A stretch of 16,698 nt of DNA from a virus (Duplodnaviria; Heunggongvirae; Uroviricota; Caudoviricetes). The position numbers and the translations under genes are program-made. The DNA is taken from the IMG/VR virus record IMGVR_UViG_3300014527_000045, positions 1 through 16,698 of that record; one strand, written 5' to 3'. Of this stretch, positions 1 through 15,191 are shown piece after piece. The notes beneath the pieces are model-generated. The model saw only the letters and a list, made by a program, of their open reading frames with translations. It did no database searches and was not told where the DNA came from. Each line of letters begins with the position of its first letter. Position 1 is the first letter of the stretch.

Positions 1-789
1 GGGACCGGCAAGTTTAACAAGGGGGGCAACGAAGCCGACTTAAACCCTAACGTCGCCAACCGCAACAAAGGCCCGCGCCGTCAGCCGGAAAAGAATGTTT
101 TCACCGATGAACAGATTGAGAAGCTGGAAGAAATCTTCCATTCCTCCATGTTCAACTACCAGCGCCACTGGTGGGAAGCCGGAAAAACCAACCGCATCCG
201 CAACCTGCTGAAGTCACGCCAGATCGGCGCGACCTTCTATTTTGCCCGTGAAGCCCTGATTGACGCCCTGCTAACCGGACGTAACCAGATTTTCCTTTCC
301 GCCAGTAAGGCACAGGCCCACGTCTTTAAACAGTACATCATCGACTTCGCCAAAGAAGTGGAGGTGGAGCTGAAAGGCGATCCGATGGTGCTTCCCAACG
401 GGGCCACTCTTTACTTCCTCGGCACCAATGCCCGCACGGCCCAGAGTTACCACGGCAACCTGTATCTGGATGAATATTTCTGGATACCGAAATTCCAGGA
501 GCTGCGCAAAGTGGCTTCCGGTATGGCTATTCACAAAAAATGGCGACAAACCTATTTTTCCACGCCATCCAGCCTGACCCACAGTGCTTATCCGTTCTGG
601 TCCGGTGCGCTGTTCAACCGTGGACGCAACAAAGCCGACAAGGTGGACATCGACCTGTCCCATAGCAATCTGGCCCCCGGCCTGCTGTGCGCAGACGGGC
701 AATACCGCCAGATAGTCACCGTGGAAGATGCGGTGCGCGGCGGCTGTAACGCATGGAGTACAGCCCGGACGAATACCAGAACCTGCTGA
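1..789 (+). CDS. Phage terminase large (ATPase) subunit, P2 gpP-like, upstream segment. The frame is open from base 1, so the gene starts upstream of the window; this frame stops at 787-789
   Basis: Frame 1 is open from position 1 ([18 protein letters not shown]...), so the listed ORF at 148 is internal. The position immediately upstream of the portal gene and the size match the P2 gpP terminase. The assignment is from memory of P2 gene order, not a search. Confidence 0.75.
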
Positions 790-1463
790 TGTGCGAGTTC
801 GTGGACGATCTCGCGTCCGTGTTCCCGCTCAGCGAGCTGCAGGCGTGCATGGTGGACAGCTGGGAAGTCTGGACCGACTTTCATGCACTGGCCCTGCGCC
901 CGTTTGGCTGGCGCGAGGTGTGGATCGGTTATGACCCGGCAAAAGGTACGCAAAACGGCGACAGCGCCGGATGCGTGGTGGTGGCACCGCCAGCCGTGCC
1001 GGGCGGTAAGTTCCGCATTCTTGAGCGTCACCAGTGGCGCGGGATGGACTTCCGCGCCCAGGCTGACGCCATCAAAAAACTGACCGAACAGTACAACGTG
1101 ACCTATATCGGCATCGACTCGACGGGTGTCGGTCACGGGGTTTATGAAAACGTGAAAGCGTTTTTTCCAGCCGTCCGGGAGTTTGTCTACAACCCCAACG
1201 TTAAAAACGCCCTGGTACTCAAGGCCTACGACATTATCAGTCACCGTCGTCTGGAGTTTGACGCCGGACACACCGACATAGCGCAGTCATTTATGGCAAT
1301 CCGTCGCGCAACCACCGCCAGCGGCAACCGCCCGACCTATGAAGCAAGCCGCAGTGAAGAAGCCAGCCATGCCGATCTGGCCTGGGCAACAATGCACGCA
1401 CTGTTTAACGAACCGCTGCAGGGCGAGTCCGCCAATACCAGCAATATTGTGGAGATTTTTTGA
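753..1463 (+). CDS. Phage terminase large subunit, downstream segment in a different frame (continuation of the same gene after a frame break)
   Basis: The 236-aa ORF overlaps the upstream segment by about 40-60 nt in another frame. Its stop TGA at 1461-1463 overlaps the portal start ATG at 1463 (ATGA-type coupling). Together the two segments approach the expected size of a P2-type large terminase. Confidence 0.75.
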
Positions 1464-2497
1464 TGGGAAAGAGTAAAAAAAAACGCGCTGCGGCGACGAA
1501 CCAGATCCAGCATAAAAGCCAAGCTTCAGCCGAAGCATTCAGCTTCGGTGATCCCATTCCAGTACTTGACCGCCGCGAACTGCTGGACTATGTGGAATGC
1601 GTACAGACAGATCGCTGGTATGAGCCTCCCGTCAGCTTTGACGGACTGGCGCGCACCTTCCGCGCTGCCGTGCATCACAGTTCACCAATTGCAGTGAAAT
1701 GCAACATTCTGACCAGCACCTACATCCCTCACCCGCTTCTCAGCCAGCAGGCTTTTTCGCGTTTTGTGCTGGACTATCTGGTATTTGGTAACGCCTACTT
1801 GGAGAAACGCACGAACCGATTCGGTGAAGTTATCGCCCTTGAGCCTGCGCTGGCAAAATACACCCGACGCGGGTTAGACCTGGATACCTACTGGTTTGTA
1901 CAATACGGTATGACAACCCAGCCGTATCAGTTCGCGAAAGGCAGCATTTTTCATCTGATGGAACCGGACATCAACCAGGAGATCTACGGCCTGCCCGGTT
2001 ATCTTTCTGCCATTCCGTCAGCCCTGCTCAACGAGTCCGCCACGCTGTTCCGCCGCAAGTATTACATTAACGGCAGTCATGCAGGCTTCATCATGTATAT
2101 GACTGACGCCGCGCAGAACCAGGAGGATGTGAACAACCTCCGCAACGCGATGAAAAGCGCCAAAGGACCGGGCAACTTCCGTAACTTGTTTATGTACTCG
2201 CCTAACGGCAAAAAGGACGGGCTTCAGATCATCCCGTTGTCAGAAGTTGCAGCGAAGGATGAATTTCTGAATATCAAGAACGTGAGCCGGGACCGGGACG
2301 CCATGATGGCGGCACACCGTGTGCCGCCGCAAATGATGGGGATTATGCCGAATAATGTTGGGGGGTTTGGGGATGTGGAGAAAGCTAGTAAGGTTTTTGT
2401 GACAAATGAATTAGTACCTCTACAAAAAAAAATCCATGAATTTAATCAGTGGATAGGGATGCATATTATCAATTTCTCAGAATATAATATAGATTAA
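1463..2497 (+). CDS. Phage portal (capsid portal) protein, P2 gpQ-like
   Basis: ATG at 1463 gives [14 protein letters not shown]..., 344 aa, the length I recall for P2 gpQ. The ORF track starts 3 nt earlier at a TTG. It is coupled to the terminase stop. The last ~30 codons are markedly AT-rich, unlike the rest of the gene. Confidence 0.85.
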   Translation: MGKSKKKRAAATNQIQHKSQASAEAFSFGDPIPVLDRRELLDYVECVQTDRWYEPPVSFDGLARTFRAAVHHSSPIAVKCNILTSTYIPHPLLSQQAFSRFVLDYLVFGNAYLEKRTNRFGEVIALEPALAKYTRRGLDLDTYWFVQYGMTTQPYQFAKGSIFHLMEPDINQEIYGLPGYLSAIPSALLNESATLFRRKYYINGSHAGFIMYMTDAAQNQEDVNNLRNAMKSAKGPGNFRNLFMYSPNGKKDGLQIIPLSEVAAKDEFLNIKNVSRDRDAMMAAHRVPPQMMGIMPNNVGGFGDVEKASKVFVTNELVPLQKKIHEFNQWIGMHIINFSEYNID

Positions 2498-2520
2498 TTA
2501 TATATACATCCCTCTAACCT

Positions 2521-3204
2521 TTAAGGCATTCTATTCTCAAAAACATGCTTTATCGCAGTGGTAAAGCATCTATCTTTTACATTCTTTTTAAACTCATCAA
2601 AGACCATAGATCTAACATCTTCAATTTCACATCCTGATTCAATAAGCTGAGATGCACATCCGACCAGTTCCTTTATTAATGTCATGCTTAATTCTATTGC
2701 ACGTCTTCTTTCCGCCTTGACTCCTCCTGAGGACGGGTTTAAGTTAAATACTCTTAACGTAACCTCTGCCATTTTGTGTTCTTTCTCATTCAAGCCTTCT
2801 CTAATATGAACATCACCATTTTCCAAAAAATGGAAAAAAACATCTGGATTTTGTCTATCAGCTTTAATTAAATCATCATCGTTATATTTTTGCTTATCCT
2901 TATAAAACCCACACCTTTGCGGCTCACCACATGAGCCAAACAAATTAGACCACTCGAAAGTTAAATTTTTGTAATAACTTTTCCTGTAAAAATGTTCAAT
3001 ATGCCTCTCAACTTTATTTTTGCCACCACTTTTATGATGCTCTATTTTTTTCTCGCAATAAGCACATAATTTACCTTGCATTTTTATTATTTCTTCCCAT
3101 ATTTCTTTTTTATCATTTGATGATAGGGAATTCCAATCATCCCTCCTATAGTCAAATTTATTAAGAACGGAAGGCCCTGGCATTTGCCTAGATAGATATT
3201 TCAT
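2521..3204 (-). CDS. HNH-family nuclease (PtuB-like effector of the retron/Septu-type cassette)
   Basis: 227 aa with CAYCEKK...HIEHF...W.NL..SCGEPQRC, an HNH-type Cys/His arrangement. Its start at 3204 overlaps the ATPase stop at 3201-3203. AT-rich. Confidence 0.75.
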   Translation of the reverse strand: MKYLSRQMPGPSVLNKFDYRRDDWNSLSSNDKKEIWEEIIKMQGKLCAYCEKKIEHHKSGGKNKVERHIEHFYRKSYYKNLTFEWSNLFGSCGEPQRCGFYKDKQKYNDDDLIKADRQNPDVFFHFLENGDVHIREGLNEKEHKMAEVTLRVFNLNPSSGGVKAERRRAIELSMTLIKELVGCASQLIESGCEIEDVRSMVFDEFKKNVKDRCFTTAIKHVFENRMP

Positions 3205-4586
3205 TTTACATCCTTACTTCCAGAAAAGTGCTGATTTATCTTATTTTTGAACTCCAAAACAGATATAAGATCATCACACTCTTGAACTAAAGGATGGTCT
3301 AATCCGAAATGTTTAATAACTTTTTCTCTTAACAAAAGAGCCTCGTCACTGCTATAACGATTAAGCTCAACCAATTTTTTATATTCTTCAAGCCAACCAT
3401 TTTCTTTAGTAGAGGGTATAGGATCAGTTCTCATTCCATATAAAAGTGCATCCTGATTACTAACACCTTTTATTTGATAGTCGGGGTGAGACACTATCAA
3501 ATCATTAACACCATCTACTTCCACTTCCTGTAGAATACGCACTGAACGAGAGCTAACAGTGGATAAAACCTGTGGGCTATGGGTAGTAATTACAAATTGA
3601 ACATTTGGGAATGTAGATGTCAAACGCTCAATAATTGTCTGTTGCCATTGCGGATGCAAATGCAAATCAATTTCATCAATTAAAACAATCCCATATCCCA
3701 ATAGAGGATTAGATAAATTTGGATTAAGTAAAATTAAACGTCGAGCCAAATCACCAACTAAAGTAAATATAGTTTTCTCACCTTGAGACAACTGTTGAAT
3801 ATCTAATTCAACCTCTCCTTTTTTAAGGATAATCTTATAATCATCATCACCATAAACAAGCTTAATCCACTGAAATTCAGGCAAGAACTTTAGAATGGTA
3901 TTTATAACACTATCATAAAGTGATACTGCATTATTAAACTTATGTTCTCCTGATTGCAGAGATTTCATGTAGTTCAATTTTTCTTTAAGCGAAAGCTCTA
4001 AACCTTTTATAACTGTTGAATCAATATTATCAATCGCAGATAGTTGAGTTAATGTTGCTTTCAAACTCTGAATATCTGAAAATAACGCATTGATTGTCGT
4101 TTGTGACTCACTCAATTTCTCTTGTGAAGCTCTGTTATGAAGAAATACAAGCCATTGAAAAAAATCGGTAAAATCATTTCTGTCAAACTCGATTTCATCA
4201 TACACATCGAATTTTGACCATACAGTTTTAGTTTTAGCATTTTTTCTTTTCCTATCAACCCCACCGCCTATATAAGAACGCGCAATAGAATAATATGCCA
4301 TCAAAGGCAAGCTTGCATTATCAACATATTTATTCACAAGTCTATAAATACTTGCAAGTTTTTTTATCTCCAACAATTCATTATTTCTAGAATAATATGC
4401 CCCCTCTTTCGCTTTAGTAATCAAAATACTGGTATTAAAGTCCTTGAGTTTTATATTTGCATCAATTGATGCATACTCAACATCAACAGAGTTATTAACT
4501 TCATGGCTTTTAATATAAGTACCAGGCTTACTCTCCTTTTCAATATTTGATCTCAACCAACTCAAAACAATTGCTATTGCATCCAA
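3201..4586 (-). CDS. ABC-type (AAA_15/AAA_21-like, PtuA/OLD-like) ATPase; the N-terminal Walker A region is disrupted upstream of the annotated start
   Basis: Contains LSQGEKT (ABC signature-like), IVLIDEIDLHLHPQWQ (Walker B/D-loop) and VITTHSP (H-loop). The ORF as listed starts at a TTG and lacks a P-loop. Immediately upstream, in the same frame, the DNA reads VYMILNG-TAA-DGFGKSTILDAI, a Walker A motif GxxxxGKST with the stop at the first x (minus-strand codon at 4611-4613). Confidence 0.8.
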   Translation of the reverse strand: MDAIAIVLSWLRSNIEKESKPGTYIKSHEVNNSVDVEYASIDANIKLKDFNTSILITKAKEGAYYSRNNELLEIKKLASIYRLVNKYVDNASLPLMAYYSIARSYIGGGVDRKRKNAKTKTVWSKFDVYDEIEFDRNDFTDFFQWLVFLHNRASQEKLSESQTTINALFSDIQSLKATLTQLSAIDNIDSTVIKGLELSLKEKLNYMKSLQSGEHKFNNAVSLYDSVINTILKFLPEFQWIKLVYGDDDYKIILKKGEVELDIQQLSQGEKTIFTLVGDLARRLILLNPNLSNPLLGYGIVLIDEIDLHLHPQWQQTIIERLTSTFPNVQFVITTHSPQVLSTVSSRSVRILQEVEVDGVNDLIVSHPDYQIKGVSNQDALLYGMRTDPIPSTKENGWLEEYKKLVELNRYSSDEALLLREKVIKHFGLDHPLVQECDDLISVLEFKNKINQHFSGSKDVK

Positions 4587-4596
4587 AATAGTGCTT

Positions 4597-4785
4597 TTAC
4601 CGAATCCGTCTTATCCGTTTAAAATCATGTATACCTATTTTATTTAAATGAAACTTACTCTCATTTAAAGTAGATATTAGCTTTTGAAGCTCAACAGACT
4701 CCTTCAAATAATCCTCGTTTATCACATGTGATTCCAACTCTAAAAAATCAACATAGCAAGTCTCTAAATTCATTTTATTTATCAT
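4597..4785 (-). CDS. Short ORF coupled to the RT stop; probably the displaced N-terminal segment of the ATPase gene rather than an independent protein
   Basis: Its ATG overlaps the RT stop (TAATG). The 62-aa product ends ...KFHLNKIGIHDFKRIRRIR, which resembles the N-terminal strand of ABC ATPases, but it is in a different frame from the Walker A segment and overlaps it on the DNA. Confidence 0.4.
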   Translation of the reverse strand: MINKMNLETCYVDFLELESHVINEDYLKESVELQKLISTLNESKFHLNKIGIHDFKRIRRIR

Positions 4786-5720
4786 TATTTGTTTCCTTCC
4801 ATCAGGAACTTAGTTATTAACTCACAACCATATTTTTTTTGTAACCTTAATAAAAAATCACCCTCCAAATAATTTGCAAACGCAATCATCCCTTTGGTTT
4901 TATTTATTTCTTCGGAAGATAAGAGTCCCAAAGAATATTTATGAATCTTTGCAAACAGCATCCTTTTACGATCGCGACCAATTGATAAATTGCCCTGAGG
5001 TGTAAGTGTTACACCAGTCACGTGCCGATTATGAGCCATCGATGTAAAAATTGTTTTAGATTCATTGATTGATAGACCGGGAACATGGAGCGACAACATT
5101 TTTTTTACCACCTTAGGAACCCTGCACAATATATCCTTAATATTAGTTGAAAAAGTTATATCATCTGCATACCTTGAATAAGTGATACCATTGTTACGGC
5201 ACCAATCATCAAGACTCTTGTCAAAGTCATACATAACAAAATTACTAATAAATGGTGAGCTTGGCGCCCCTACACTTAATATCAACGTTGTACTTCTCTT
5301 TTTTCCCGGACGCCAAAAAAGCAAATTACGTAGGGTGTTCTCATCAAATGAATCCAATTTCAGCCCTGTGTTCTCAAGTTTCGAGAAAAATATATCAGGT
5401 TTAATTTTGTTAAAGAAGTTCTGAAAATCCATTTTAAGAATATAATTATTATCTTTATGCAACAATGCATTATCTTTAATACTTTTTTTATATTCATATG
5501 CCATTGCCTTATGATGAACAGGCAGCTTTGGCTGTAGCAAAGATACTATAAATCTCTGTACGTTTTTTAGTTCCTTTGTCGGCTGAGCTATCACCCGAAA
5601 ACCTGCGCCACGTTTAGGAATATAATAAACTTTATATTTTTTGGGGGCCTCATTTAAAAGTAATTGGAAAGCTAATCTATTATAATTAAACTTACTGATA
5701 ATTTTAGAAGTTAGTTGCAT
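4785..5720 (-). CDS. Retron-type reverse transcriptase
   Basis: 311 aa with YYIPKRGAGFRVIAQP (RT motifs 1/2), ILKMDFQNFF (motif A), GAPSSP, YSRYADDITF (YxDD catalytic motif), SINESKT (motif D) and HNRHVTGVTL (the VTG triplet typical of retron RTs). It is collinear with my recollection of the Ec86 RT. AGAGGGG lies 7 nt upstream of the ATG. Confidence 0.9.
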   Translation of the reverse strand: MQLTSKIISKFNYNRLAFQLLLNEAPKKYKVYYIPKRGAGFRVIAQPTKELKNVQRFIVSLLQPKLPVHHKAMAYEYKKSIKDNALLHKDNNYILKMDFQNFFNKIKPDIFFSKLENTGLKLDSFDENTLRNLLFWRPGKKRSTTLILSVGAPSSPFISNFVMYDFDKSLDDWCRNNGITYSRYADDITFSTNIKDILCRVPKVVKKMLSLHVPGLSINESKTIFTSMAHNRHVTGVTLTPQGNLSIGRDRKRMLFAKIHKYSLGLLSSEEINKTKGMIAFANYLEGDFLLRLQKKYGCELITKFLMEGNK

Positions 5721-5739
5721 ATAACCCCTCTTAAAACCA

Positions 5740-5950
5740 AAGCGCCATGCAACTTTACATAGCGCTTTGACTCTTCACTAAAGACAGCGAAAGACACAGA
5801 TTTCTCCTTCGCATATCTGCCCCGGGCAGGGATGCGAAGGAGAAATCTGTGTCTTTCGCAACCCTAAACCGGACAATAAATTTAAGCCTGGCTAATCACC
5901 CGGCTGGAACCAATGTTCCTACACTAAAGAGCGTAATGATTTTAATGAAC
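5740..5950 (-). ncRNA. Candidate retron msr/msd non-coding RNA region, including a long msd-like hairpin (5787-5859)
   Basis: Directly upstream of the RT on the same strand. Perfect 28-nt inverted repeat (5787-5814 pairs with 5832-5859) around a 17-nt, partly self-complementary loop. I could not find the a1/a2 inverted repeats by eye, so the boundaries are provisional. Confidence 0.45.
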
Positions 5951-5965
5951 AAATAGATATAAGGC

Positions 5966-5984
5966 AAGGCGCGCGCTCGTATCC
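5966..5984 (-). other. Putative cos (cohesive end) site of a P2/186-family phage
   Basis: The minus strand reads GGCGTGGCGGGGA at 5984-5972, matching the first 13 nt of the 19-nt 186/P2 cohesive end as I recall it (GGCGTGGCGGGGAAAGCAT / GGCGAGGCGGGGAAAGCAC). The downstream 6 nt diverge. Orientation and position (between the right-end genes and the portal 3' end) fit. Confidence 0.45.
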
Positions 5985-6033
5985 CCGCCACGCCTGCCCG
6001 CTTTATGTAGTGGTTTTCATGCACCTGCATGAT

Positions 6034-6063
6034 CTACGCAAAAGCCCGCCAGTTCTGGCGGGC
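6034..6063 (-). terminator. Putative intrinsic terminator of the tum/dinI transcript
   Basis: GC stem gcccgcc / ggcgggc (6044-6050 and 6057-6063) with a 6-nt loop, followed on the minus strand by TTTTG. Confidence 0.45.
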
Positions 6064-6198
6064 CTTAGCAAAAACGATCCTCAAACGATCATGCGATCTC
6101 ATGCGGCATAGACATGCACTACAGAGCTAACGCCTCGCAAGGGCTCGTTGTTCAACCTTGCTGACGCCAGAAACAAGTTCAGACGCCAGCAACGTTTC

Positions 6199-6432
6199 TT
6201 AATGCAGCCAGCTGTCGTCTTCCCACACCTTCTGCATAATTTTCATCACTTGTTTTCTTTCTTCGTCCAGTTGCAGTCCGGTCAGTTCCACACCGTTAGA
6301 GCTACCTTTGCGGATACGAATTACCGTTTTGGGATACAGGGGGCGCAGATTGCGGTAAAGCTCGGATTCAAGGGCGTCCAGTGTAGACTGGCTAATCTTC
6401 TGCTCTTTATCGATCATTATTTCAATGCGCAT
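6199..6432 (-). CDS. dinI: DinI-family protein (phage 186 orf97-like)
   Basis: From the internal ATG at 6432 the product is MRIEIMIDKEQ...KVWEDDSWLH (77 aa), collinear with E. coli DinI as I recall it (MRIEVTIAKT...ETWESADDWF). GAGGTGA lies upstream of this ATG. The ORF track extends further upstream, but that overlaps the preceding gene. Confidence 0.75.
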   Translation of the reverse strand: MRIEIMIDKEQKISQSTLDALESELYRNLRPLYPKTVIRIRKGSSNGVELTGLQLDEERKQVMKIMQKVWEDDSWLH

Positions 6433-6442
6433 AAAAGTCACC

Positions 6443-6631
6443 TCAGCTGATGACATCCATTGAGCGGTTGTATTCGTGGGTTCTGATTTTTGCCATGAGT
6501 TCATCTGTCAGTTCAGAAACCCACTGCAGGGCCAGCCCCTTCTCTTCATCACTACACTCACTAGCCGCTACAAGCTTAAGAAAAAAATCAATGCGCTGGA
6601 GCTTCAAAGACTCCAAAAAATAGTCCTGCAT
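6443..6631 (-). CDS. tum: Tum-like SOS-inducible antirepressor candidate (small protein upstream of dinI-like gene)
   Basis: 62-aa ORF with AGGAGG 5 nt before the ATG, immediately downstream of LexA-box-like sequence and followed by the DinI-like gene. This mirrors the phage 186 SOS operon (tum, then orf97) located between gene A and cos. The protein itself is not recognised by sequence. Confidence 0.5.
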   Translation of the reverse strand: MQDYFLESLKLQRIDFFLKLVAASECSDEEKGLALQWVSELTDELMAKIRTHEYNRSMDVIS

Positions 6632-6656
6632 CTTTCCTCCTATGACACCAAAGCAA

Positions 6657-6715
6657 TACTGTATATATAACCACTGTTTATGTTTACAGTATATAATAAT
6701 CTTACTGATGTAAAA
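6657..6715 (-). promoter_or_regulatory. LexA (SOS) box overlapping a candidate promoter for the tum/dinI operon
   Basis: Perfect CTGT-N8-ACAG at 6674-6689 (cactgtttatgtttacagta), plus an adjacent half-site CTGTATATATAA at 6659-6670. On the minus strand, TTTACA (-35-like) and TATACT (-10-like) are spaced so that the box overlaps the -10. Confidence 0.6.
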
Positions 6716-6783
6716 CGTTTTTTTACGCTCATCAGCCTGATATGCCTGGTATTATTAAGAGCACGAATTGTTAACCCGCGTAA

Positions 6784-9156
6784 TTAATACAGGTTTCGCC
6801 ACTTATCATCTTCCTGCAAACGCTGGTTCCGATAGAAGATACGTAGGCCTGCTCCTGACGGAATACTGCCGCCGCGAAGCAGTAAATCGACCTCTTTCTC
6901 GCTGCCATCAAATCCCCTGGACTTCAGTTCATACACGAGCTGCAGTCGCTGATGGTCTGTAATTCGCTGTTTGTAGTCTTTACGCCGTTTCGGTTTCACC
7001 AGGCGTAACCTTGCTGCCAGTTCCCGGCGCTCTTTTTTGCTCATACTGTGCAGGTAATCGTGCAACTCCTTGTCATCCATGCGGGTGATATCCGTTCTGG
7101 TATCTCCATCAGTTGATTTGTCTTTCCCTTGTTGGTACAAATTTTCAGCAAGGGGACAGTTATTGCCACGAGTCCAAGGGGCGCAAGCGCCCTGGTCGGC
7201 TGCCGCCTCCTGAACGTCAACGGCTTTACGAACCATTTTCCACTTCACTGCATGAGTGCAGATCTTACCCTCTGCAATGGGTGACCAGATGCCATAAATA
7301 CGAATACCGTGATCGCCATAGGCGGTCGGCTCTTCGTTAATTTCATAAGCTGTTCTGATAAGGTGATATTTGCGGGGAACCAGCACGCCGCCCTGCTTCA
7401 TGATGTAGGTGGCAAAACAGCCAGCATCAGCAGCAGCCAGGATGGCATCAAGGCGTGGGTTATCCAGTACCGGCGCACCTGCTTTTTTGTCCCCCTGCTG
7501 CCTTGCCGCCTGACCAGCCAGCAATCGCAGTTCACGGTAAGCCTGACGCCCCGGAATACCAAAGAAGCGGAATTGCTGAACACGATGCAGAGACGCCCAG
7601 GCATTAACGTATTCAGCGTTATCACGCAGGGATTTACCCGTTTCCTTGCTGATCTCACCAGCCAGACCACGCCCGTCAATGTTCTTACTGATGTATTTCG
7701 CGATGTAGCTTGTTGGCGTACCTTTGCGCGGGTTTATCAGCTCAGACTTAAAGCGTGGTCCCGTGTTATTACCCAGCTCCTCGCGGTCTTCACGAATGGC
7801 AAACTTACGCAGTAATGCAGTGATGGCGCGGCGGTCTTTTTTGCGCATAAAACACAACAGGTGCCAGTGAACTGTACCGTCATGATGCGGCTCAGCCACC
7901 CGCACGCCATACCAGCGCAATCCGGCTTTGTGCATCGCCTTACGAAATGCAGCAAACATGCCGACCAAATAATCACTGCTTTGTCTTACTGTCGCGTTGG
8001 TCCAGGTCGGGTTTGGCCTGCCGTTATTTAGCGTGGAATGGAAACGTGACGGACAGGTGATGGTGTAGAAAACGGCGCAGTCACCACGCATTTCCGCGAT
8101 AAGCTCCAGGCCTTTAACACAGGCCATCATCTCGTTGCGGCGATGCGCCGGGTTGCTGCTGCTGGCGTTTACCACATCCTCCATGTTCAGCGTGTCGCCG
8201 TCTTCGTTCACCAGTTCATGAGAACGGAAAAACTCCAGCGACTTACGGCGCTGCTCACGTTTATGCATCACGGCTTCATAGCTGACATAGGGAGATGCTT
8301 TTTTGCTGACCAGGCAGACAGCACGCAACTGCTCTTCCCGCCATTCGCAACGCATCTTCCATAATTTCCGATACCACCAGTCGGCGCACAGCATACGCGC
8401 CAGCGAACCCGGAATGAGTTCATAAGGCACAGGTTTGCGGCGGTTTCTTTTCCGGCGGAGTTGCTCAAACGCAGGCGGTATGACATCCAGTCGCAGGGTT
8501 TCTGCAGCCACCTTTTCCCATGTCTTGCGGATTTCTTCTGGCTTAACATCATCGGTGGCATACAAATCACCACAAGCTACATCAAGGCACATACTCATAT
8601 GCGCAGCTACCAGGGTGGACAGGCGTTTCACCTGATCCTGACTCATTTCAGGCAGAATCAGCAGGCCGTCCAGCCCTTCATGGCTTGCCATAAAGCGAAA
8701 AGAAGTGGATAGCTGACTGTCGCGTACATGCTCCAGCCGTTCCAGACATGGCTTAATCGTCTCACGCAAATAGCGGGAATAAGCCTTTGGCCTGCCAAGG
8801 CTGCTGAAGTATTCAATACGTTGCATCAGCGGCTTGCTGATATGGGAAGGCTGGGCATTGACGTCCGCCAGAATGACCATATCTGGATTAAAACGCTGCT
8901 GCTCATGCGCCAGCTTTGCCCGACTAATGAGCTTATCCTGCTCCATTTCGCGCTGGACAGGATCACGGGATTCATTAAAGAAATAACGCTCCCAGACCTG
9001 ATCACTCAGTACCTCGCGGCGCAGGTGTTCCTGCTCGTTATCGGCAGCGTACAGAGCGATCAGGTTTGAAAGCGCAGAAACTGAAGATTGCTCTTCTGTC
9101 TCTACGTAAGGATTGATTGCTTTTTTCTCAGCATTCCAGGAATAGCTGTAGTTCAT
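6784..9156 (-). CDS. Replication initiation protein, P2 gpA-like (rolling-circle nicking enzyme)
   Basis: 790-aa ORF whose size and position (between the early region and the right-end/cos region) match gene A of P2/186 phages. Its start overlaps the stop of the upstream gene. The plus-strand ORFs inside it are antisense artefacts. Confidence 0.85.
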
Positions 9157-9986
9157 TACGCAATCTCCAGTTCGAGCTGTGAAGGCTGCAAACCATTCGA
9201 CAGCCAGTCAGAAACTGAAGGTGGGCGAACAGCTTCAATTGCACCTTTTAAAATTGCGCAACGGTTTTTCAGAATGACAGCTTTCAGCTCCTTTTCCGTC
9301 AGATTGCGCGAATACTCAGCCTCCTGAATAGCCCGCGTAAGCTCAGGATATTTGCTATTAAATTTGGGGACATTGCAGGCAAGATTTGTACTGTCGGCAG
9401 TCGCCAGTGGGTAATTTCCCAACACACGACCGTCAAGCATGCGCAAACCATGAACAGCTGTTTTGAAATTGTGTCGGCAATAAATTGCTTCAAAAGCGTC
9501 CTGCATACGACGATGCCAGTGCGCAGTTCTAATAGCCGCATATTCACCAGACGATCCAAAGCAGACACGAGGCCATTCACGACATAGCTCGATAAGCCGA
9601 TCGATTGACTCGTGCAGATGCCAGACGGGAGTTGCCTTCCCGTAGAACATTTTCGGAACTTCGTTTATCAGGGCATCATTGTCACGTTCACCTCCGTCCA
9701 CAACATCAGGAATGACAAAAAAAGCGACCTTAGGATGGTGGTAATAGTTCAGGAGCCATTTATAAAAATCACTCCAGTTAATTTTTAGCCCACGCCCCCA
9801 TGCAGAAAATGCGCCGTTATCAATGCCAACGACCTGAGCGTGCTGAATGGACGCCGCAATCTGATCTGGTCGTACATAGGAGACGAAAGCACCAGCTCCG
9901 CTCACCGCAATACGATGAACGTCGCCAGCACTTCCCCAGACAGGCGTCCCATGGAAATGATGAATTCCGTGGTGCATTTCTTTCAC
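9156..9986 (-). CDS. Conserved phage protein of unknown function, co-transcribed with Dam
   Basis: 276-aa ORF overlapping Dam at its 5' end (9983-9986) and gene A at its 3' end (9156). I do not recognise the family. Confidence 0.6.
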
Positions 9987-10837
9987 ACTTGCACCCCGAA
10001 AATAACAGTAGAGTCACGTCCCCTACTAAAATCGGCACTAAACCAATTAGCAGATTTAGTGGCAATCATCTCTGTTGCAAATTTTCCCTCCCCCGCTGCA
10101 ACGCCGATGCTGCGTTTCGCCCTGATGTAGTGGTGAGTGAAATTACGATAAAGAGACCGGGTCAAAGACGTGTCACTGTTAGAAACAATGACCGGATGTC
10201 CTTCAGATGCTCGATGTTCAAGAACGGATGCCAGGTGATACTGGTCATCTTCAGTGAAACCATCAGTGTGATAGCCGGAAAACGTACCGTCATACGGCGG
10301 ATCGCAATACACCACATCCCCCGCCTTCAACATCGCCAGCGTTTCATCAAAGCTGGCGCAGAAAAACGTTGCCCGCTGGGCTTTTTCTGCAAATGCGCGA
10401 ATTTCTTTTTCAGGGAAATACGGATTTTTATAATTACCGTAGGGAATGTTGAAATGCCCGCTCTTGTTATAGCGGCATAAACCACGGTAACCGTGACGAT
10501 TGAGATACAGAAAATATACCGCTTTCATGAAATCAGTAATTTCAGTGGAGTAATTAAACTCCTGCCTTATGTTGTAATAAGCCACCTCCCTGTTTGCGAT
10601 CTCAAATAAAACTCTGGCGCGAGATATAAACGATTCACAATCAGCGGCAACCTTTTTATAGAGGTTGATTAAATCAGGATTAATATCCGCAACCAGATAG
10701 CTGGGGTAATCCGTCTCCATCATCACAGCACAGGAACCCGCGAAAGGTTCAACCAGTCGCGGGCCAGCAGGAAGGTGTTTTTTCAGTTCGGACATTATGG
10801 CGGTTTTATTTCCCGCCCATTTCAGGATAGTGCTCAT
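9983..10837 (-). CDS. dam: DNA adenine methyltransferase (Dam family, N6-adenine)
   Basis: From the internal ATG at 10837: [11 protein letters not shown]... (the Dam N-terminal motif) and [11 protein letters not shown] (DPPY catalytic motif). This start overlaps the upstream ORF stop (ATGA). Confidence 0.85.
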
Positions 10838-11061
10838 ACAGCACCTCCGTTGTAATGTTTGCCTTTCAGCTCTGCGATTTCCTGACAGGTAATGCAAAGC
10901 TGCACACCCGGAATGGCACGGCGGCGTGCTGGCGGAATTGGCGCTTCACACTCAATGCAAAGCACGCGAGACACGCCCGGTGTTTTGGCACGGGCAGCAC
11001 GGATATGGCGCTGGCGTTCTTCTTCAACGCGCTGCTGTACGAGATCCATTGCATCAGCCAT
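10834..11061 (-). CDS. TraR/DksA-family C4 zinc-finger protein
   Basis: 75 aa with CIECEAPIP...CITCQ, two CxxC pairs as in phage TraR/DksA-like proteins. Confidence 0.65.
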   Translation of the reverse strand: MADAMDLVQQRVEEERQRHIRAARAKTPGVSRVLCIECEAPIPPARRRAIPGVQLCITCQEIAELKGKHYNGGAV

Positions 11062-11300
11062 TAGTGGATCTCCTGCGCTTCGTTCTGGATTGCTTCAGCA
11101 GTCACACGCAGCAGTTCTGCCGCTTCCACGTGGTTTAGCTGACGGGATGAGATATGACACGCCAGGCTATCAAGGCGAGCTGCCATTGCTTCAGCCCTTG
11201 CCCGGCGTTCTTCCAGACGAGCCTCTGTCAGTAAAATATTAAGCCCTGCATCATCCGGTCCGGTTTTAGTCGTGAGGATTTCAATATTACGCATAATCAA
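11061..11300 (-). CDS. Hypothetical phage early protein
   Basis: 79-aa ORF in the same-strand operon, with a coupled stop/start overlap at 11061. Confidence 0.5.
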   Translation of the reverse strand: MIMRNIEILTTKTGPDDAGLNILLTEARLEERRARAEAMAARLDSLACHISSRQLNHVEAAELLRVTAEAIQNEAQEIH

Positions 11301-11361
11301 TTCTCCTGAATTTAGATAAAGGGATACCCGGCGGGTTTACGCCATTAATTTCATTAGTTGG

Positions 11362-11703
11362 TTAATTCGGCATGGTTAGCCGTCTGGGAAATAAGCTCAC
11401 CACTGCACGAAAATGATTCATTGCTTTAATCAACTCCCGCTTTTCGTCAGTGGTCAGCTCATTGATGCTGATGCTATGACGTTCAGCCGGAATTTTTGCC
11501 ATAAAGAATATGGCTGCCAGTGCTCGTTTATTTTGTTCGTTATTGATATCCCGTGGATCACGCATATCTTTAATAAACCGCTCAAGCTCTGACTCAATAT
11601 TCAGGCCAAAAACTTTCGCCCTTAATTCCGCTATGTGATTAAGTCCATTCAGGCGTTCACCGGGGCTTAATGGAACAGTCGCCGCAGCGCCTTCAATAGC
11701 CAT
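11362..11703 (-). CDS. Hypothetical phage early protein
   Basis: 113-aa ORF on the same strand as the early operon. Confidence 0.55.
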   Translation of the reverse strand: MAIEGAAATVPLSPGERLNGLNHIAELRAKVFGLNIESELERFIKDMRDPRDINNEQNKRALAAIFFMAKIPAERHSISINELTTDEKRELIKAMNHFRAVVSLFPRRLTMPN

Positions 11704-11867
11704 TTGTTCCCCCGTTTTTTCGTAGATAGTTCTGCCAGCAATTCATCTTGTGAACGGCACGGATGCCAGCGTTTACCATCCTCACCCATGATCCAGCCGT
11801 GACCGTAGTGCATTGCCGGGCTTTGTTTTACCAGCAGCGATGCAAATGATGGTTCTTTCGTCAGCAT
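11667..11867 (-). CDS. Hypothetical small phage early protein (start uncertain)
   Basis: The 76-aa ORF overlaps both neighbours; an internal start (MLTKEP...) at 11867 removes the overlap with cII. Confidence 0.35.
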   Translation of the reverse strand: MLTKEPSFASLLVKQSPAMHYGHGWIMGEDGKRWHPCRSQDELLAELSTKKRGNKWLLKALRRLFH

Positions 11868-11874
11868 AAGCACC

Positions 11875-12390
11875 TCACAGCAAACCGAATGAAGCACCGA
11901 GGCCAGTCACGGTATCAACTGCACTCGCCATCGCAGGATTAGCCTGTAAACGGGCCTGCAATGAAACAGCAGCCAGCGCCATCAGTCGTGTTACAGAGTT
12001 AATGCTGCTGATAGCATCACGACGACCGGCACTAGTTTTTACATCACCAGATACCGCACCTGCTGCAACACGTCCGATCTCTGCAGTTGCGCTCATGACG
12101 TAATGCGGCAGTTTCTCTTTTGCAACCTCATTAATCGGTACACATGGCAGGCAGTGAATCTGTGCCAGAAAACCATCTACCAGCGTTGAATCTTCAGTCA
12201 GATCGGTAAGCAGCCAGATTTCTGGTGCGGTTAATAAATGAGGCTGAGCTGGGTTCAGCTTGTTCCGCAGAATCTGCACATTCATGCCTGCACGTTCTGC
12301 CAGTTGCACCAGATTGTGGCGCAGTGCAAATGCACGACAGGCTTCATCAAAATGTGGATGTTTGGAAACTTGGTAATCAAACATGGTCAA
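11875..12390 (-). CDS. cII: CII-like transcriptional activator (phage 186 CII family)
   Basis: 171 aa, M(T)[20 protein letters not shown]..., closely resembling my recollection of 186 CII (about 169 aa) and in the same position after apl. Confidence 0.7.
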
Positions 12391-12416
12391 TGCCTCTGAT
12401 GTATTTCAGAATCGAA

Positions 12417-12638
12417 CTAATTAAGGTTTAGATTGCATTCTGAAAGCGCATCAACGGTCATGGCTGCTATGTTGATCATCACTTTTTCGCGTTTTTTATC
12501 TTTACGCAAACGGTGACGGATAAGGCGTCCATCAGCCAACATGTCATTGATGGTATCGATGGACAGTCCTGTCAGCTCGCTATAGCGTTCAATAGTCACA
12601 TGAGGCGTGGTAAGAGTGATTGAAATGTTAGGTCTCAT
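12417..12638 (-). CDS. apl: Apl/Cox-like excisionase and repressor of the lysogenic promoter
   Basis: 73-aa first gene of the leftward early operon, divergent from the repressor gene, with HTH-like [25 protein letters not shown]. Confidence 0.6.
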
Positions 12639-12757
12639 GATGCAACATTCCTCGTTTAATGATGATTAATCAGGACGAATACGGATCGTTTGTATTTTGT
12701 GAACACCATAAACATACGATCGCATCATGAAATCGTCAAGATAAAAGTTCACTTGGA
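12639..12757. promoter_or_regulatory. Lysis/lysogeny switch region between apl and cI (expected face-to-face pR/pL promoters and operators)
   Basis: 119-bp AT-rich gap between the divergent apl and cI starts. Promoter hexamers were not confidently placed. Confidence 0.4.
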
Positions 12758-13333
12758 GTGACCATGAATTTGGAGAAAGGCGGACGAGGCGCTATAGAGC
12801 GCATGGTAGAAGCTTATGGATTCAAAACTCGACAGGCGTTGTGCGATCATTTAGGAATCTCTAAAAGTACACTCGCTACACGCTACATGCGTGACTCATT
12901 CCCAGCAGAATGGGTAATCCAGTGCGCCCTTGAAACGGGCACCTCGCTTAATTGGCTCACAACTGGACATGGTTCAAAGCAAACTTCAGGTAATACAAAT
13001 ACGATGGAAGTTGCTAAGTATGTATTATCTGATGGTGCCTTGCGTGAAGACGGTTTTTATATTTTTGATAAGGGATTTCTACCCTCTACGTTTAAAAAAC
13101 CTTTTGTCATCACAGATAACAATTCTGAATTTATTTGTGATAAAGAATTTGATGATATACGTGATGGTAAATGGGTAATAAGTATTGATGGCGAAATAAC
13201 AATCCGCGACATTACTCGTTTACCCGGTGGAAGAATCTTCGTTGAAGGTGGAAACAGATCCTTCGAGTGCAAGATAGAAGATGTTGAAATAATTGGAAAA
13301 ATTATAAGTTTAACAATTAAGTACGTTAGGTAA
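12758..13333 (+). CDS. cI: Immunity repressor CI (phage 186 CI family)
   Basis: 191 aa; the N-terminus ...AYGFKTRQALCDHLGISKSTLATRYMRDSFPAEWVIQCALETG... matches the 186 CI HTH region as recalled (186 CI is about 192 aa). Confidence 0.75.
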   Translation: MTMNLEKGGRGAIERMVEAYGFKTRQALCDHLGISKSTLATRYMRDSFPAEWVIQCALETGTSLNWLTTGHGSKQTSGNTNTMEVAKYVLSDGALREDGFYIFDKGFLPSTFKKPFVITDNNSEFICDKEFDDIRDGKWVISIDGEITIRDITRLPGGRIFVEGGNRSFECKIEDVEIIGKIISLTIKYVR

Positions 13334-13348
13334 TACCGGGAGTAAACT

Positions 13349-13540
13349 ATGCTTGGTAAGGTATTTTTTGTGGTTTTATCATGCTCTTTGTTATTAAACC
13401 CACTAACTACCTATGCTAAAAATTATCCTTGTTCTGGGAAAAAGGGAGGTGTCTCTCACTGTACCTCCGATGGAAAGTTCGTTTGCAATGATGGAACCAT
13501 TAGTAAATCAAAAAAAATCTGTACTAAAAACTCGCGATAA
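13349..13540 (+). CDS. Small secreted cysteine-rich protein (possible moron)
   Basis: 63 aa with a signal-peptide-like N-terminus ([23 protein letters not shown]) and several Cys in the mature part. AT-rich, lying between cI and int. Confidence 0.5.
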
Positions 13541-13726
13541 TTTTTGCTTTTATATCTGCGCCTAATATAACAATGAGCCGCAGGCTAACCGCAAAAGTCA
13601 CATACTCACATAGCAAAAAATAGCCAACTTCATTATGGCTTCAGTGAGATGTATGGTCGCAAGATTTCATACATTGACACTGGTTATACATACAGTAAAA
13701 ATGCTCTCTATTGGAGGGCATTTTTT

Positions 13727-14758
13727 ATGGCAGTACGAAAACTCACCACAGGAAAATGGCTTTGCGAATGTTACCCCGCCGGACGTAGTGGGCGTCGTGT
13801 GCGTAAACAATTCGCCACCAAAGGCGAAGCACTGGCTTTTGAGCGTCACACGATGGAAGAAACCGAAGCAAAGCCCTGGCTGGGCGAATCAGTAGATCGT
13901 CGAACCCTGAAAGACGTGGTTGAGCTATGGTTCAAACTACATGGTAAATCTCTGACTGCTGGGCAGCATGTCTATGACAAATTGCTGCTGATGGTTGACG
14001 CTCTGGGCAATCCCCTTGCAACCGATCTCACATCTAAAATGTTTGCCCATTATCGAGATAAACGACTGACAGGTGAGATCTACTTCAGCGAGAAATGGAA
14101 GAAAGGGGCCAGCCCGGTCACCATTAACCTGGAGCAAAGCTATCTAAGTAGTGTTTTTAGCGAACTATCCCGCCTGGGCGAATGGTCGTATCCAAACCCA
14201 CTGGAGAACATGCGAAAATTCACCATCGCAGAAAAAGAGATGGCATGGCTTACCCATGAGCAGATTGTTGAACTGCTGGATGATTGCAAACGTCAGGACC
14301 CAATTCTGGCACTGGTAGTCAAGATATGCTTAAGCACAGGCGCACGCTGGCGAGAAGCAATAAACCTTACCCGCTCACAGGTGACCAAATACCGAATTAC
14401 CTTTGTCAGAACGAAGGGGAAGAAAAACAGAAGCATCCCTATCAGTAAAGAGCTTTACGAAGAGATCATGGCGCTCGATGGGTTCAATTTCTTCACAGAC
14501 TGCTATTTTCAATTTTTATCCGTGATGGAAAAAACGTCTATCGTGCTCCCTCGCGGTCAACTGACACACGTTCTGCGCCATACGTTTGCGGCGCATTTTA
14601 TGATGTCGGGTGGAAATATCCTTGCTTTGCAAAAAATCCTCGGACATCACGACATAAAAATGACTATGCGTTACGCACATCTAGCACCGGATCACCTGGA
14701 AACTGCATTACGGTTTAATCCGCTGGCAACACTACCAACATCAATAGCAAGTTTTTGA
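13727..14758 (+). CDS. int: Tyrosine integrase (P2/186 Int family)
   Basis: ATG at 13727 is preceded by GGAGGG; the ORF track start at 13649 is too far upstream. Product MAVRKLTTGKW..., with C-terminal HVLRHTFAAHFMMSGGNILALQKILGHHDIKMTMRYAHL carrying the R...H..R...Y catalytic signature. Confidence 0.9.
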   Translation: MAVRKLTTGKWLCECYPAGRSGRRVRKQFATKGEALAFERHTMEETEAKPWLGESVDRRTLKDVVELWFKLHGKSLTAGQHVYDKLLLMVDALGNPLATDLTSKMFAHYRDKRLTGEIYFSEKWKKGASPVTINLEQSYLSSVFSELSRLGEWSYPNPLENMRKFTIAEKEMAWLTHEQIVELLDDCKRQDPILALVVKICLSTGARWREAINLTRSQVTKYRITFVRTKGKKNRSIPISKELYEEIMALDGFNFFTDCYFQFLSVMEKTSIVLPRGQLTHVLRHTFAAHFMMSGGNILALQKILGHHDIKMTMRYAHLAPDHLETALRFNPLATLPTSIASF

Positions 14759-14816
14759 AAATGCGTATTTTGCCCTGTTGAGCTAATATTCTTTTTTTTC
14801 ACATGGAGCACTATCA

Positions 14817-15086
14817 ATGAATAAGTTTCAGCATCAGGGAGCGGAATTGCGCAACAGAGCCAAAGAATTGGCTTTATCCGTACTTAAAACTCACCCAGAT
14901 GCCCAAAAAAACGGCAACGGCGTTAAGCAAGCTGAGGTATTTCGTCTAAGCGGCCTCGATTGGGGAGAAAAACGGAAAGCCACAAGTTCGAACCAACAAT
15001 ATTGGGTTGTTGCACTATTGCGTGAACTAGAAGAGGAGGGGTTAGTCGAACAGATTGAAGATAGGGGCCCATGGCGTCTAAGGTAA
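14817..15086 (+). CDS. Hypothetical protein between int and the host junction
   Basis: 89-aa ORF followed by an intrinsic terminator. Whether it is phage or host DNA is unknown. Confidence 0.5.
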   Translation: MNKFQHQGAELRNRAKELALSVLKTHPDAQKNGNGVKQAEVFRLSGLDWGEKRKATSSNQQYWVVALLRELEEEGLVEQIEDRGPWRLR

Positions 15087-15191
15087 AACAAGTGGCGACA
15101 AAGTGGCGGCAGCGGTTGGCATTACCCCGTAATCACCACCACTGACCACCAACCCAACTTATTGTTTTTACTCTAACTTATTGTTTCCATT

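What the first reader, a model, noticed from the sequence alone, without database searches (positions are those of the whole stretch)
5960..5990. cos-like sequence places the accessory cassette between cos and the portal gene
The minus strand carries GGCGTGGCGGGGA, the first 13 nt of the 186/P2 cohesive end as I recall it, in the orientation expected relative to the portal gene. The right-end genes (A, tum, dinI) lie on one side and the RT cassette plus portal on the other. The last 6 nt of the 19-nt cohesive end do not match, so this could be a divergent or degenerate cos. A degenerate cos, together with the broken terminase frame, would suggest a prophage that can no longer package.
Basis: partly seen in the sequence, partly recalled or inferred. 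Interest (0 to 1): 0.5.

Follow-up and report, generated by a model that had tools for sequence, protein, structure and literature searches.

The report
Intact Fels-2-type phage cos site
The motif is the genuine DNA-packaging (cos) site of a P2-family prophage, in the intact Fels-2-type form rather than a decayed one, and a retron defence cassette sits beside it in a known cargo hotspot, so the finding is correct but ordinary.

Summary
GGCGTGGCGGGGA is on the minus strand at 5994..5982, 4 nt beyond the stated range. It is unique in the window and absent from 200 shuffles.

The full 19-mer, GGCGTGGCGGGGATACGAG (5994..5976), is not degenerate. It equals the cohesive end mapped from read starts in the inducible E. 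coli HS prophage, and the cos annotated in Salmonella phage SEN8. Fels-2 and Cartapus carry the same sequence. The whole 55-bp P2/P4-type cos core (5969..6023) is present. So is a conserved upstream block: three phased GCATG repeats and a terminator.

Conservation stops exactly at +26. A complete Ec78-type retron cassette then runs to the portal gene. This is the known P2 cos-proximal hotspot (Dodd & Egan 1996; Rousset 2022). Most relatives carry cargo there.

It does get support from the terminase. The large-subunit gene has a 22-nt out-of-frame deletion that separates the ATPase and nuclease domains. A contig otherwise identical to the window lacks this deletion.

Verdict: a known kind of site in a known arrangement. 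Interest is low.

The parts
5976..5994 (-). 19-nt cohesive-end sequence GGCGTGGCGGGGATACGAG (Fels-2 / SEN8 / E. coli HS type). Nicks are expected before 5994 on the minus strand and after 5976 on the plus strand.
   Evidence: Identical to the cos mapped in E. coli HS and to the cos annotated in SEN8.
5969..6023 (-). 55-bp cos core (-29..+26): TGCATGAAAACC...AAAGCGGGCA + 19-mer + CGCGCGC. It corresponds to the block shared by P2 and P4.
   Evidence: 42/55 identical to P2, 44/55 to 186, 54/55 to SEN8. Conservation across 61 portal-seeded loci is 0.92-0.95 inside the core and 0.40 beyond +26. The '55-bp core' of Ziermann & Calendar is cited in PMC5694545.
6090..6118 (-). Three phased GCATG repeats at -124, -110 and -100 (6118..6114, 6104..6100, 6094..6090). 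A fourth lies at -29 inside the core. Candidate terminase-binding array; the function is inferred.
   Evidence: same positions in P2, P4, 186, PSP3, SEN8 and the window. GCAT at -123/-110/-100/-28 in 81-98% of 59 distinct loci, against a 2.8% per-position background.
6040..6063 (-). Rho-independent terminator-like hairpin GCCCGCCAG-AA-CTGGCGGGC followed by TTTT. It ends the gpA-DinI (right-end) transcription unit just before the cos core.
   Evidence: -24.6 kcal/mol, z = -5.1, 0 of 200 shuffles fold as well. Conserved in relatives. 186 annotates terminator t95b in the same region, about 160-190 nt before its right end and upstream of the position of this hairpin.
5939..5967 (-). Promoter-like site (TTGCCT-17-TAAAAT) for the retron ncRNA/RT operon. 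It starts 1 nt after the cos core.
   Evidence: consensus scan only, 9/12. msr begins at 5932.
5729..5932 (-). Retron ncRNA: msr 5932..5868 and msd 5866..5729, including the long hairpin at 5790-5860.
   Evidence: Rfam msr 45.9 bits (E = 7e-7, gathering score 52); STnc400 (St85-type msd) 71.4 bits (E = 1e-13, gathering score 80). Both are below the gathering score.
4785..5720 (-). Retron reverse transcriptase, 311 aa.
   Evidence: RVT_1. NCBIfam retron_St85_RT 321 bits, cut-off 235.
3201..4785 (-). PtuA ATPase effector, split into 62-aa (4597..4785) and 461-aa (3201..4586) ORFs by a 49-nt deletion at 4609.
   Evidence: PtuA 401.6 bits, below the 500 cut-off, matching profile positions 90-524 only.
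2521..3204 (-). PtuB HNH nuclease effector, 227 aa.
   Evidence: NCBIfam PtuB equivalog 160.7 bits, cut-off 150. The annotated relatives carry the same gene.
1460..2497 (+). Portal protein gpQ, transcribed toward cos. The last ~110 nt are AT-rich and not conserved at the DNA level (a fuzzy cargo boundary). There is a 6-nt in-frame insertion at 2294-2299.
1..1463 (+). Terminase large subunit gpP. It runs off the window start and is broken by a 22-nt deletion at ~750. The ATPase part ends at the stop at 787-789. The nuclease part is a separate ORF, 753..1463.
6199..9156 (-). Right-end genes: gpA replication endonuclease (6784..9156), a 62-aa ORF (6443..6631) and a DinI-like protein (6199..6435).
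   Evidence: Phage_GPA, DinI. Annotation of relatives.

Best explanation
Window 5969..6118 (minus strand) is the complete, sequence-intact cos region of a Fels-2-like (Felsduovirus-type) P2-family prophage.

Expected mechanism. A P2-family terminase (small subunit gpM plus large subunit gpP) recognises the 55-bp core. It probably also uses the phased GCATG repeats 100-124 bp upstream. It nicks the two strands 19 nt apart, giving 5'-protruding ends GGCGTGGCGGGGATACGAG. The mature left end would then begin at 5994 and read toward the portal gene.

Cargo position. The cos requirement ends at +26. DNA from +27 up to the 3' end of the portal gene is therefore free to vary, and in this phage family it is a cargo hotspot. 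Here it holds an Ec78-type retron (ncRNA, RT, PtuA, PtuB) whose promoter abuts the cos core.

Status of each step.
- Shown: sequence identity to a mapped cos, conservation of the core, and the sharp +26 boundary.
- Taken from the literature: cleavage at this sequence in E. coli HS.
- Inferred: the role of the GCATG repeats, and that this copy would be cut.

In this prophage the cognate terminase large subunit carries a frameshifting 22-nt deletion. If that deletion is real and not an assembly artefact, the intact cos can probably be used only in trans, by a co-resident or superinfecting phage of the same cos type.
For: - Exact unique 13-mer, 0 of 200 shuffles.
- The -70..+26 junction is identical to Fels-2 and vB_EcoM-813R9. 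SEN8 has an identical 19-mer and core (54/55) and differs at a few positions upstream. Cartapus is identical over the stretch its record holds (-32..+26). The SEN8 record starts at this 19-mer and ends at ...AAAGCGGGCA.
- E. coli HS cos was mapped by start-site analysis/PhageTerm as 5'-GGCGTGGCGGGGATACGAG-3' at 926016-926034. I confirmed the coordinates in NC_009800. Window versus HS: 26/26 at +1..+26, 120/135 upstream, 3/14 after +26.
- The 55-bp core aligns with P2, P4, 186 and PSP3 at 42-45/55.
- In portal-seeded loci from 80 species-level genomes, 33 of 63 cos motifs are this exact 19-mer, and the related forms with a different base at position 13 followed by TACGAG bring the total to 51 of 63. 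Majority-base conservation is 0.94 at +1..+19, 0.95 at +20..+26 and 0.40 at +27..+60.
- The 96-nt core is present in 1,277 of 5,426 complete E. coli genomes.
- GCAT sits at fixed positions -123/-110/-100/-28 across lineages, including satellite P4.
- Cargo between cos and Q is the rule: 74 of 86 IMG/VR loci and 53 of 63 genome loci.
- The window's terminase C-terminal 231 aa are 100% identical to the HS phage terminase.
Against: - No virion DNA ends are available for this prophage itself.
- The small terminase gene gpM lies outside the window.
- The large terminase gene is frameshifted. cos may never be cut in this lysogen, so its intactness could simply reflect how recently the phage was inactivated.
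- The HS mapping is a supplementary-table result from sequencing read starts, not a biochemical end determination.
- The SEN8 and Cartapus cos annotations are labelled 'putative'.
Confidence: 0.9

Rival explanations
1. Degenerate cos. Mutations in the last 6 nt of the cohesive end have inactivated the packaging site of a decaying prophage.
For: 4 of 19 positions differ from 186 and 5 of 19 from P2. The prophage does carry inactivating deletions in the terminase and PtuA genes.
Against: The same 19-mer is the mapped cos of an inducible phage. It is also the cos annotated in SEN8, an isolated phage. Positions 14-26 are conserved across dozens of species. Decay would give scattered private changes, but the window has none relative to Fels-2, HS or 813R9.
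Confidence: 0.03
2. Sequence-intact but functionally orphaned cos. The site is a recent fossil in a prophage that can no longer make active terminase. It matters only if a compatible helper phage supplies terminase in trans.
For: A 22-nt deletion truncates gpP after aa 344 of 588 and separates Terminase_6N from Terminase_6C. Contig L052 has no substitutions relative to the window across their shared ~14.5 kb and lacks the deletion, so the lesion is very recent.
Against: This concerns present activity, not identity, so it is compatible with the best explanation. The deletion could be an assembly difference. A split terminase with re-initiation at M353 (ATG at 753, overlapping the upstream stop by 37 nt) has not been shown to be inactive.
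Confidence: 0.6
3. Coincidental GC-rich match with no relation to packaging.
For: With 2 mismatches allowed, 50 of 200 shuffles give a hit.
Against: The exact match occurs in 0 of 200 shuffles. About 150 bp of flanking homology to the cos regions of P2-family phages lies at the syntenic position between gpA/DinI and portal Q.
Confidence: 0.005

Closest known systems
cos of Fels-2-like phages (Felsduovirus and relatives): Fels-2, SEN8, Cartapus, E. coli HS 'phage 1'
   Same: The 19-mer and the 7 nt after it (+1..+26) are identical in all of them; SEN8 differs from the window at one base of the -29..-1 part of the core (54/55). The upstream GCATG repeats and terminator are the same. The synteny is the same: gpA-DinI | cos | cargo | Q.
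   Different: Only the cargo after +26 differs: the retron here, unrelated genes in the others. The state of the terminase gene also differs.
cos of 186 / PSP3 (GGCGTGGCGGGGAAAGCAT) and of P2 / P4 (GGCGAGGCGGGGAAAGCAC)
   Same: Same 19-nt length by alignment. The first 13 nt are identical to 186. The 55-bp core architecture is shared: TGCATnAAAACC...AAGCGGGCr | 19-mer | yGCGCGC. The phased GCATG repeats at about -124/-111/-101 are shared, and so are position and orientation relative to Q.
   Different: Positions 14, 16, 17, 19 and 20 differ (TACGAG-C versus AAGCAT-T). Whether P2 or 186 terminase can cut this variant was not tested.
Retrons Ec67 and Ec86 in 186-related prophages (Dodd & Egan 1996, Virology 219:115), and the P2 cos-proximal defence hotspot (Rousset et al. 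2022, PMC9122126)
   Same: [quoted passage not shown]
   Different: The retron here is Ec78/Eco7-type (RT + PtuA + PtuB). The host phage is Fels-2-like rather than 186-like. In phage P2 itself the cargo (old, tin) lies on the other side of cos.

Membership tests
P2-family (Peduoviridae) cos site | 19-nt cohesive-end sequence of the form GGCGnGGCGGGG + 7 nt | tested here: met
   Window 5994..5976. 15/19 identical to 186, 14/19 to P2, 19/19 to SEN8, Fels-2 and HS.
P2-family (Peduoviridae) cos site | 55-bp conserved core shared by P2 and P4 (-29..+26) | tested here: met
   Window 5969..6023 aligns without gaps. 42/55 to P2, 43/55 to P4, 44/55 to 186. I derived the core limits from the P2-P4 alignment. 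The 55-bp figure comes from the citation in PMC5694545.
P2-family (Peduoviridae) cos site | Position between the right-end genes (gpA...) and portal Q, with the top strand of the 19-mer reading toward Q | tested here: met
P2-family (Peduoviridae) cos site | Staggered cleavage by terminase at this sequence, giving 5' overhangs | not testable with these tools
   Literature only, for the identical sequence in E. coli HS: read-start analysis/PhageTerm (PMC8008629 Table S4). Not determined for this prophage.
P2-family (Peduoviridae) cos site | Cognate terminase (gpM + gpP) encoded by the same element | tested here: not met
   gpP has a 22-nt frameshifting deletion. gpM lies outside the window. This bears on activity in cis, not on the identity of the site.
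P2 cos-proximal cargo/defence hotspot (gpA-gpQ interval) | Variable accessory genes next to cos between gpA and gpQ, flanked by conserved phage DNA | tested here: met
   The break is sharp at +26/+27. The cos-to-Q gap ranges from 154 to 3,532 nt in 86 IMG/VR loci and from 178 to 5,596 nt in 63 genome loci. The window's gap is 3,478 nt.
Retron Ec78 / Eco7 (type I-A) | msr-msd ncRNA upstream of a retron RT | tested here: inconclusive
   Rfam msr 45.9 bits (gathering score 52) and STnc400/msd 71.4 bits (gathering score 80). E-values are 7e-7 and 1e-13, but both hits are below the gathering score. The RT passes the NCBIfam St85-family cut-off, 321 versus 235.
Retron Ec78 / Eco7 (type I-A) | PtuA ATPase and PtuB HNH effectors downstream of the RT | tested here: inconclusive
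   PtuB passes (160.7 versus 150). PtuA scores 401.6, below 500, because a 49-nt deletion splits off its N-terminal ~90 profile positions. The relatives have an intact 544-aa PtuA.

The most novel reading that the evidence does not exclude
The sharp cargo boundary lies exactly at the edge of the cos core (+26). It is shared by Fels-2-like phages, and P2/P4 homology ends at the same point. The array of GCATG repeats on the other side of the nick is invariantly phased. Together these could mean two things. First, the GCATG array may be the real terminase small-subunit binding element (a cosB equivalent) on the right-end side. [quoted passage not shown] Positions 13-20 of the cohesive end would then act as a lineage-specific helper/satellite compatibility code.
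Probability: 0.12. Interest if true: 0.4.

Novelty: already known. Interest (0 to 1): 0.12.

Why it matters
The result mainly corrects an annotation. This prophage has a fully intact packaging signal of a widespread cos type. The 96-nt core is found in about a quarter of complete E. coli genomes.

The retron sits in the classic cos-to-portal cargo slot. It could therefore still be mobilised if a compatible helper phage supplies terminase.

The practical point is that cos variants should be compared with the right phage lineage (Fels-2-like) before being called degenerate. Prophage viability is better judged from the terminase lesion than from cos.

Tried and rejected
- Chance match: rejected (plus flanking homology).
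- Degenerate cos: rejected by identity to mapped and annotated cos sites and by cross-species conservation.
- P4-like satellites carrying this cos type, as independent evidence of function. I examined the IMG/VR loci that lacked gpA and Q hits. They were only short or variant P2-like fragments, so nothing was concluded.
- Finding the window's 22-nt terminase deletion elsewhere through the exact 236-aa ORF. The ORF is on record in many differently truncated prophages, but none of those checked has this deletion.
- The primary papers (Ziermann & Calendar 1990; Dodd & Egan 1996) are not held. I rely on how other papers cite them.
- The Q-side cargo boundary has no sharp junction. DNA homology ends at scattered points within the last ~110 nt of Q.
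- Not attempted: covariation of cos type with terminase lineage. The two are tightly linked, so co-inheritance would be uninformative.

Full report
**Observation.** The minus strand reads ...AAAGCGGGCA GGCGTGGCGGGGATACGAG CGCGCGC CTTGCC.... It is unique in the window. It occurs in none of 200 dinucleotide-preserving shuffles when matched exactly. With two mismatches allowed, 50 of 200 shuffles give a hit, so the short motif alone would be weak evidence. It equals positions 1-13 of the 186 and PSP3 cohesive ends, and P2 differs at position 5. The remaining six bases (TACGAG versus AAGCAT) share two positions, which makes the 19-mer 15/19 identical to 186 and 14/19 to P2.

**Context.** Pfam and NCBIfam scans and the annotation of close relatives give the gene order. 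Read on the minus strand, which is the P2 map orientation, it is:
- integrase and CI;
- gpA (9156..6784);
- a 62-aa ORF;
- DinI-like protein (6435..6199);
- terminator hairpin (6063..6040; -24.6 kcal/mol, z = -5.1);
- cos;
- the retron cassette;
- portal Q and terminase P on the opposite strand.

This is the layout of P2, 186, PSP3 and SEN8, whose records start at the cohesive end with Q reading back toward it.

**What the site is.** BLAST of the region against phage records finds a ~150-bp non-coding block. It ends a few bases after the 19-mer in about 90 Peduoviridae records. I rebuilt the circular junctions. From -70 to +26 the window is identical to Fels-2 and Escherichia phage vB_EcoM-813R9. 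Cartapus is identical over the -32..+26 its record holds, and it annotates a 'putative cos site' over 59 bp that contain the core. SEN8 has the same 19-mer and differs at one position of the core (54/55) and at a few positions further upstream. The SEN8 record begins exactly at GGCGTGGCGGGGATACGAG and ends at ...AAAGCGGGCA. Its genome announcement names that 19-mer as the cos site (PMC5427200).

The strongest evidence is experimental. Zünd et al. 2021 (PMC8008629, Supplementary Table 4) mapped the cos of the mitomycin-inducible E. coli HS prophage. They used read start-site analysis and PhageTerm, and report 5'-GGCGTGGCGGGGATACGAG-3' at 926016-926034. I confirmed those coordinates in NC_009800. 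Against HS, the window is 26/26 identical at +1..+26, 120/135 upstream, and 3/14 immediately after +26. The window's terminase C-terminal 231 residues are 100% identical to the HS phage terminase.

**Independent conservation test.** To avoid seeding on the motif, I collected loci through the portal protein alone, from one genome per species, and then looked downstream of Q. A cos-like motif was found in 63 loci.
- 33 of the 63 carry exactly this 19-mer.
- Another 18 carry the same sequence with a different base at position 13 (51 of 63 in all). These span Escherichia, Enterobacter, Klebsiella, Citrobacter, Pantoea and others.
- Majority-base conservation is 0.94 over +1..+19 and 0.95 over +20..+26. 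It falls to 0.61, 0.39 and 0.30 at +27, +28 and +29, and averages 0.40 over +27..+60.
- The 96-nt core matches 1,277 of 5,426 complete E. coli genomes.

The six 'mismatching' bases are therefore the conserved, lineage-typical form, not decay.

**Anatomy of the cos region.** Aligning P2 with its satellite P4 recovers a shared block from -29 to +26, which is 55 bp. This matches the '55-bp core' attributed to Ziermann & Calendar 1990 (cited in PMC5694545). The window has this core at 5969..6023. It is 42/55 identical to P2, 44/55 to 186 and 54/55 to SEN8.

Upstream, GCATG or TGCAT motifs sit at about -124, -111, -101 and -29. The positions are the same in P2, P4, 186, PSP3, SEN8 and the window, although the DNA between them differs. 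In 59 distinct portal-seeded loci, GCAT starts at -123, -110, -100 and -28 in 81-98% of cases, against a per-position background of 2.8%. I infer that this phased array is part of what terminase recognises. That is not shown here, and I could not check whether it was already described.

**How it most likely works.** From established knowledge of P2-family packaging: terminase (gpM + gpP) binds the cos region and nicks the two strands 19 nt apart, leaving 5' overhangs. Here the left end would start at 5994. The conserved signal ends at +26, so everything from +27 to the end of Q can vary.

**The cassette.** The cargo begins at 5968, immediately after the core. Its parts, in order, are:
- a promoter-like site at 5967..5939;
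- msr (5932..5868) and msd (5866..5729), by Rfam with E = 7e-7 and 1e-13, both below the gathering score;
- a retron RT (NCBIfam St85 family, 321 bits against a cut-off of 235);
- PtuA;
- PtuB (160.7 bits against 150).

This is the Ec78/Eco7 architecture, annotated as such in E. coli strains 98208 and FORC_082 at the same locus. On the Q side the boundary is not sharp. DNA homology ends at scattered points in the last ~110 nt of Q.

[quoted passage not shown] Rousset et al. 2022 described the gpA-gpQ interval next to cos as a defence hotspot with 18,150 occurrences, retrons among them. Later work confirms it. In my samples, cargo lies between cos and Q in 74 of 86 IMG/VR loci that carry this cos and in 53 of 63 species-level loci. 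The gpA-to-cos side also varies, from 486 to 4,116 nt, with a mode of about 792 nt as in the window. Neither the site nor the arrangement is new.

**Packaging competence.** IMG/VR contig L052 covers window 231..14758 and shows no substitutions against it. The window differs from it by three indels only:
- a 22-nt deletion at ~750 in gpP;
- a 6-nt in-frame insertion in Q at 2294-2299;
- a 49-nt deletion at 4609 in PtuA.

The gpP reading frame follows the HS terminase from aa 95 to 344. It then shifts, adds 12 aberrant residues and stops. The C-terminal nuclease domain survives only as a separate ORF starting at M353. Other relatives lack this deletion. If it is real, the prophage probably cannot cut its own intact cos, though a compatible helper phage could. 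If it is an assembly difference, nothing argues against packaging. The PtuA deletion removes the sequence just upstream of the Walker A motif, so the retron's effector arm is probably also inactive.

**Verdict.** The site is an already-known cos variant in an already-known cargo arrangement. Interest is low. The only mildly new points are the phased GCATG array and the exact +26 cargo boundary.

Noticed in passing
window 231..14758 versus L052 (IMGVR_UViG_3300014532_000123): The window has no substitutions relative to a metagenome-derived viral contig across their shared ~14.5 kb. It differs by three indels: -22 nt in terminase gpP (~750), +6 nt in frame in portal Q (2294-2299), and -49 nt in retron PtuA (4609). 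Microhomology at the junctions is at most 1 nt. These are either very recent inactivating mutations or assembly differences.
   Followed up: partly
window 3201..4785 (minus): The retron effector PtuA is split into 62-aa and 461-aa ORFs by the 49-nt deletion just upstream of its Walker A motif. Relatives have an intact 544-aa protein, so the Ec78-type retron here is probably not a working defence system.
   Followed up: partly
window 6090..6118 and 6019..6023 (minus); also P2, P4, 186, PSP3, SEN8 and loci L133-L212: GCATG/TGCAT motifs lie at fixed distances (-124, -111, -101, -29) from the cos nick in every P2-family lineage examined and in satellite P4. A conserved GATC-N6-GGATC and a terminator hairpin lie between them. 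This may be a cosB-like terminase-binding array.
   Followed up: partly
L215, L219, L220 around locus position 2998; window ~750: In three differently deleted P2-like prophage remnants, unrelated tail or head-completion genes are joined to the terminase gene at the same nucleotide (...CAGCT[A/G]C|GCATGGAG). That point is 9 nt from the right edge of the window's 22-nt deletion. L220 also contains the window's junction 14-mer GCTGTAACGCATGG natively, about 60 nt upstream. This could be a recurrent breakpoint, or selection bias from the exact-ORF look-up.
   Followed up: partly
L073 (IMGVR_UViG_3300011853_000021) 3440-3470 and 6699-6729: Two copies of the cos core lie in inverted orientation 3.2 kb apart. 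They are embedded in diverged (80-97% identical) inverted arms that include portal genes. These look like two P2-like elements head to head rather than a simple assembly fold-back.
   Followed up: partly
window 2385..2497: The last ~110 nt of the portal ORF are AT-rich and match almost no relative at the DNA level, although the protein C-terminus still aligns. The cargo replacement boundary seems to lie inside the 3' end of Q.
   Followed up: partly
window 14758..15090 versus L013 and L012: The prophage sits next to rcdA/ybjJ. Relatives differ in what lies between the integrase and the chromosomal flank (for example a DUF4917 gene in strain 98208). This is a second small variable spot at the int end.
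   Followed up: no
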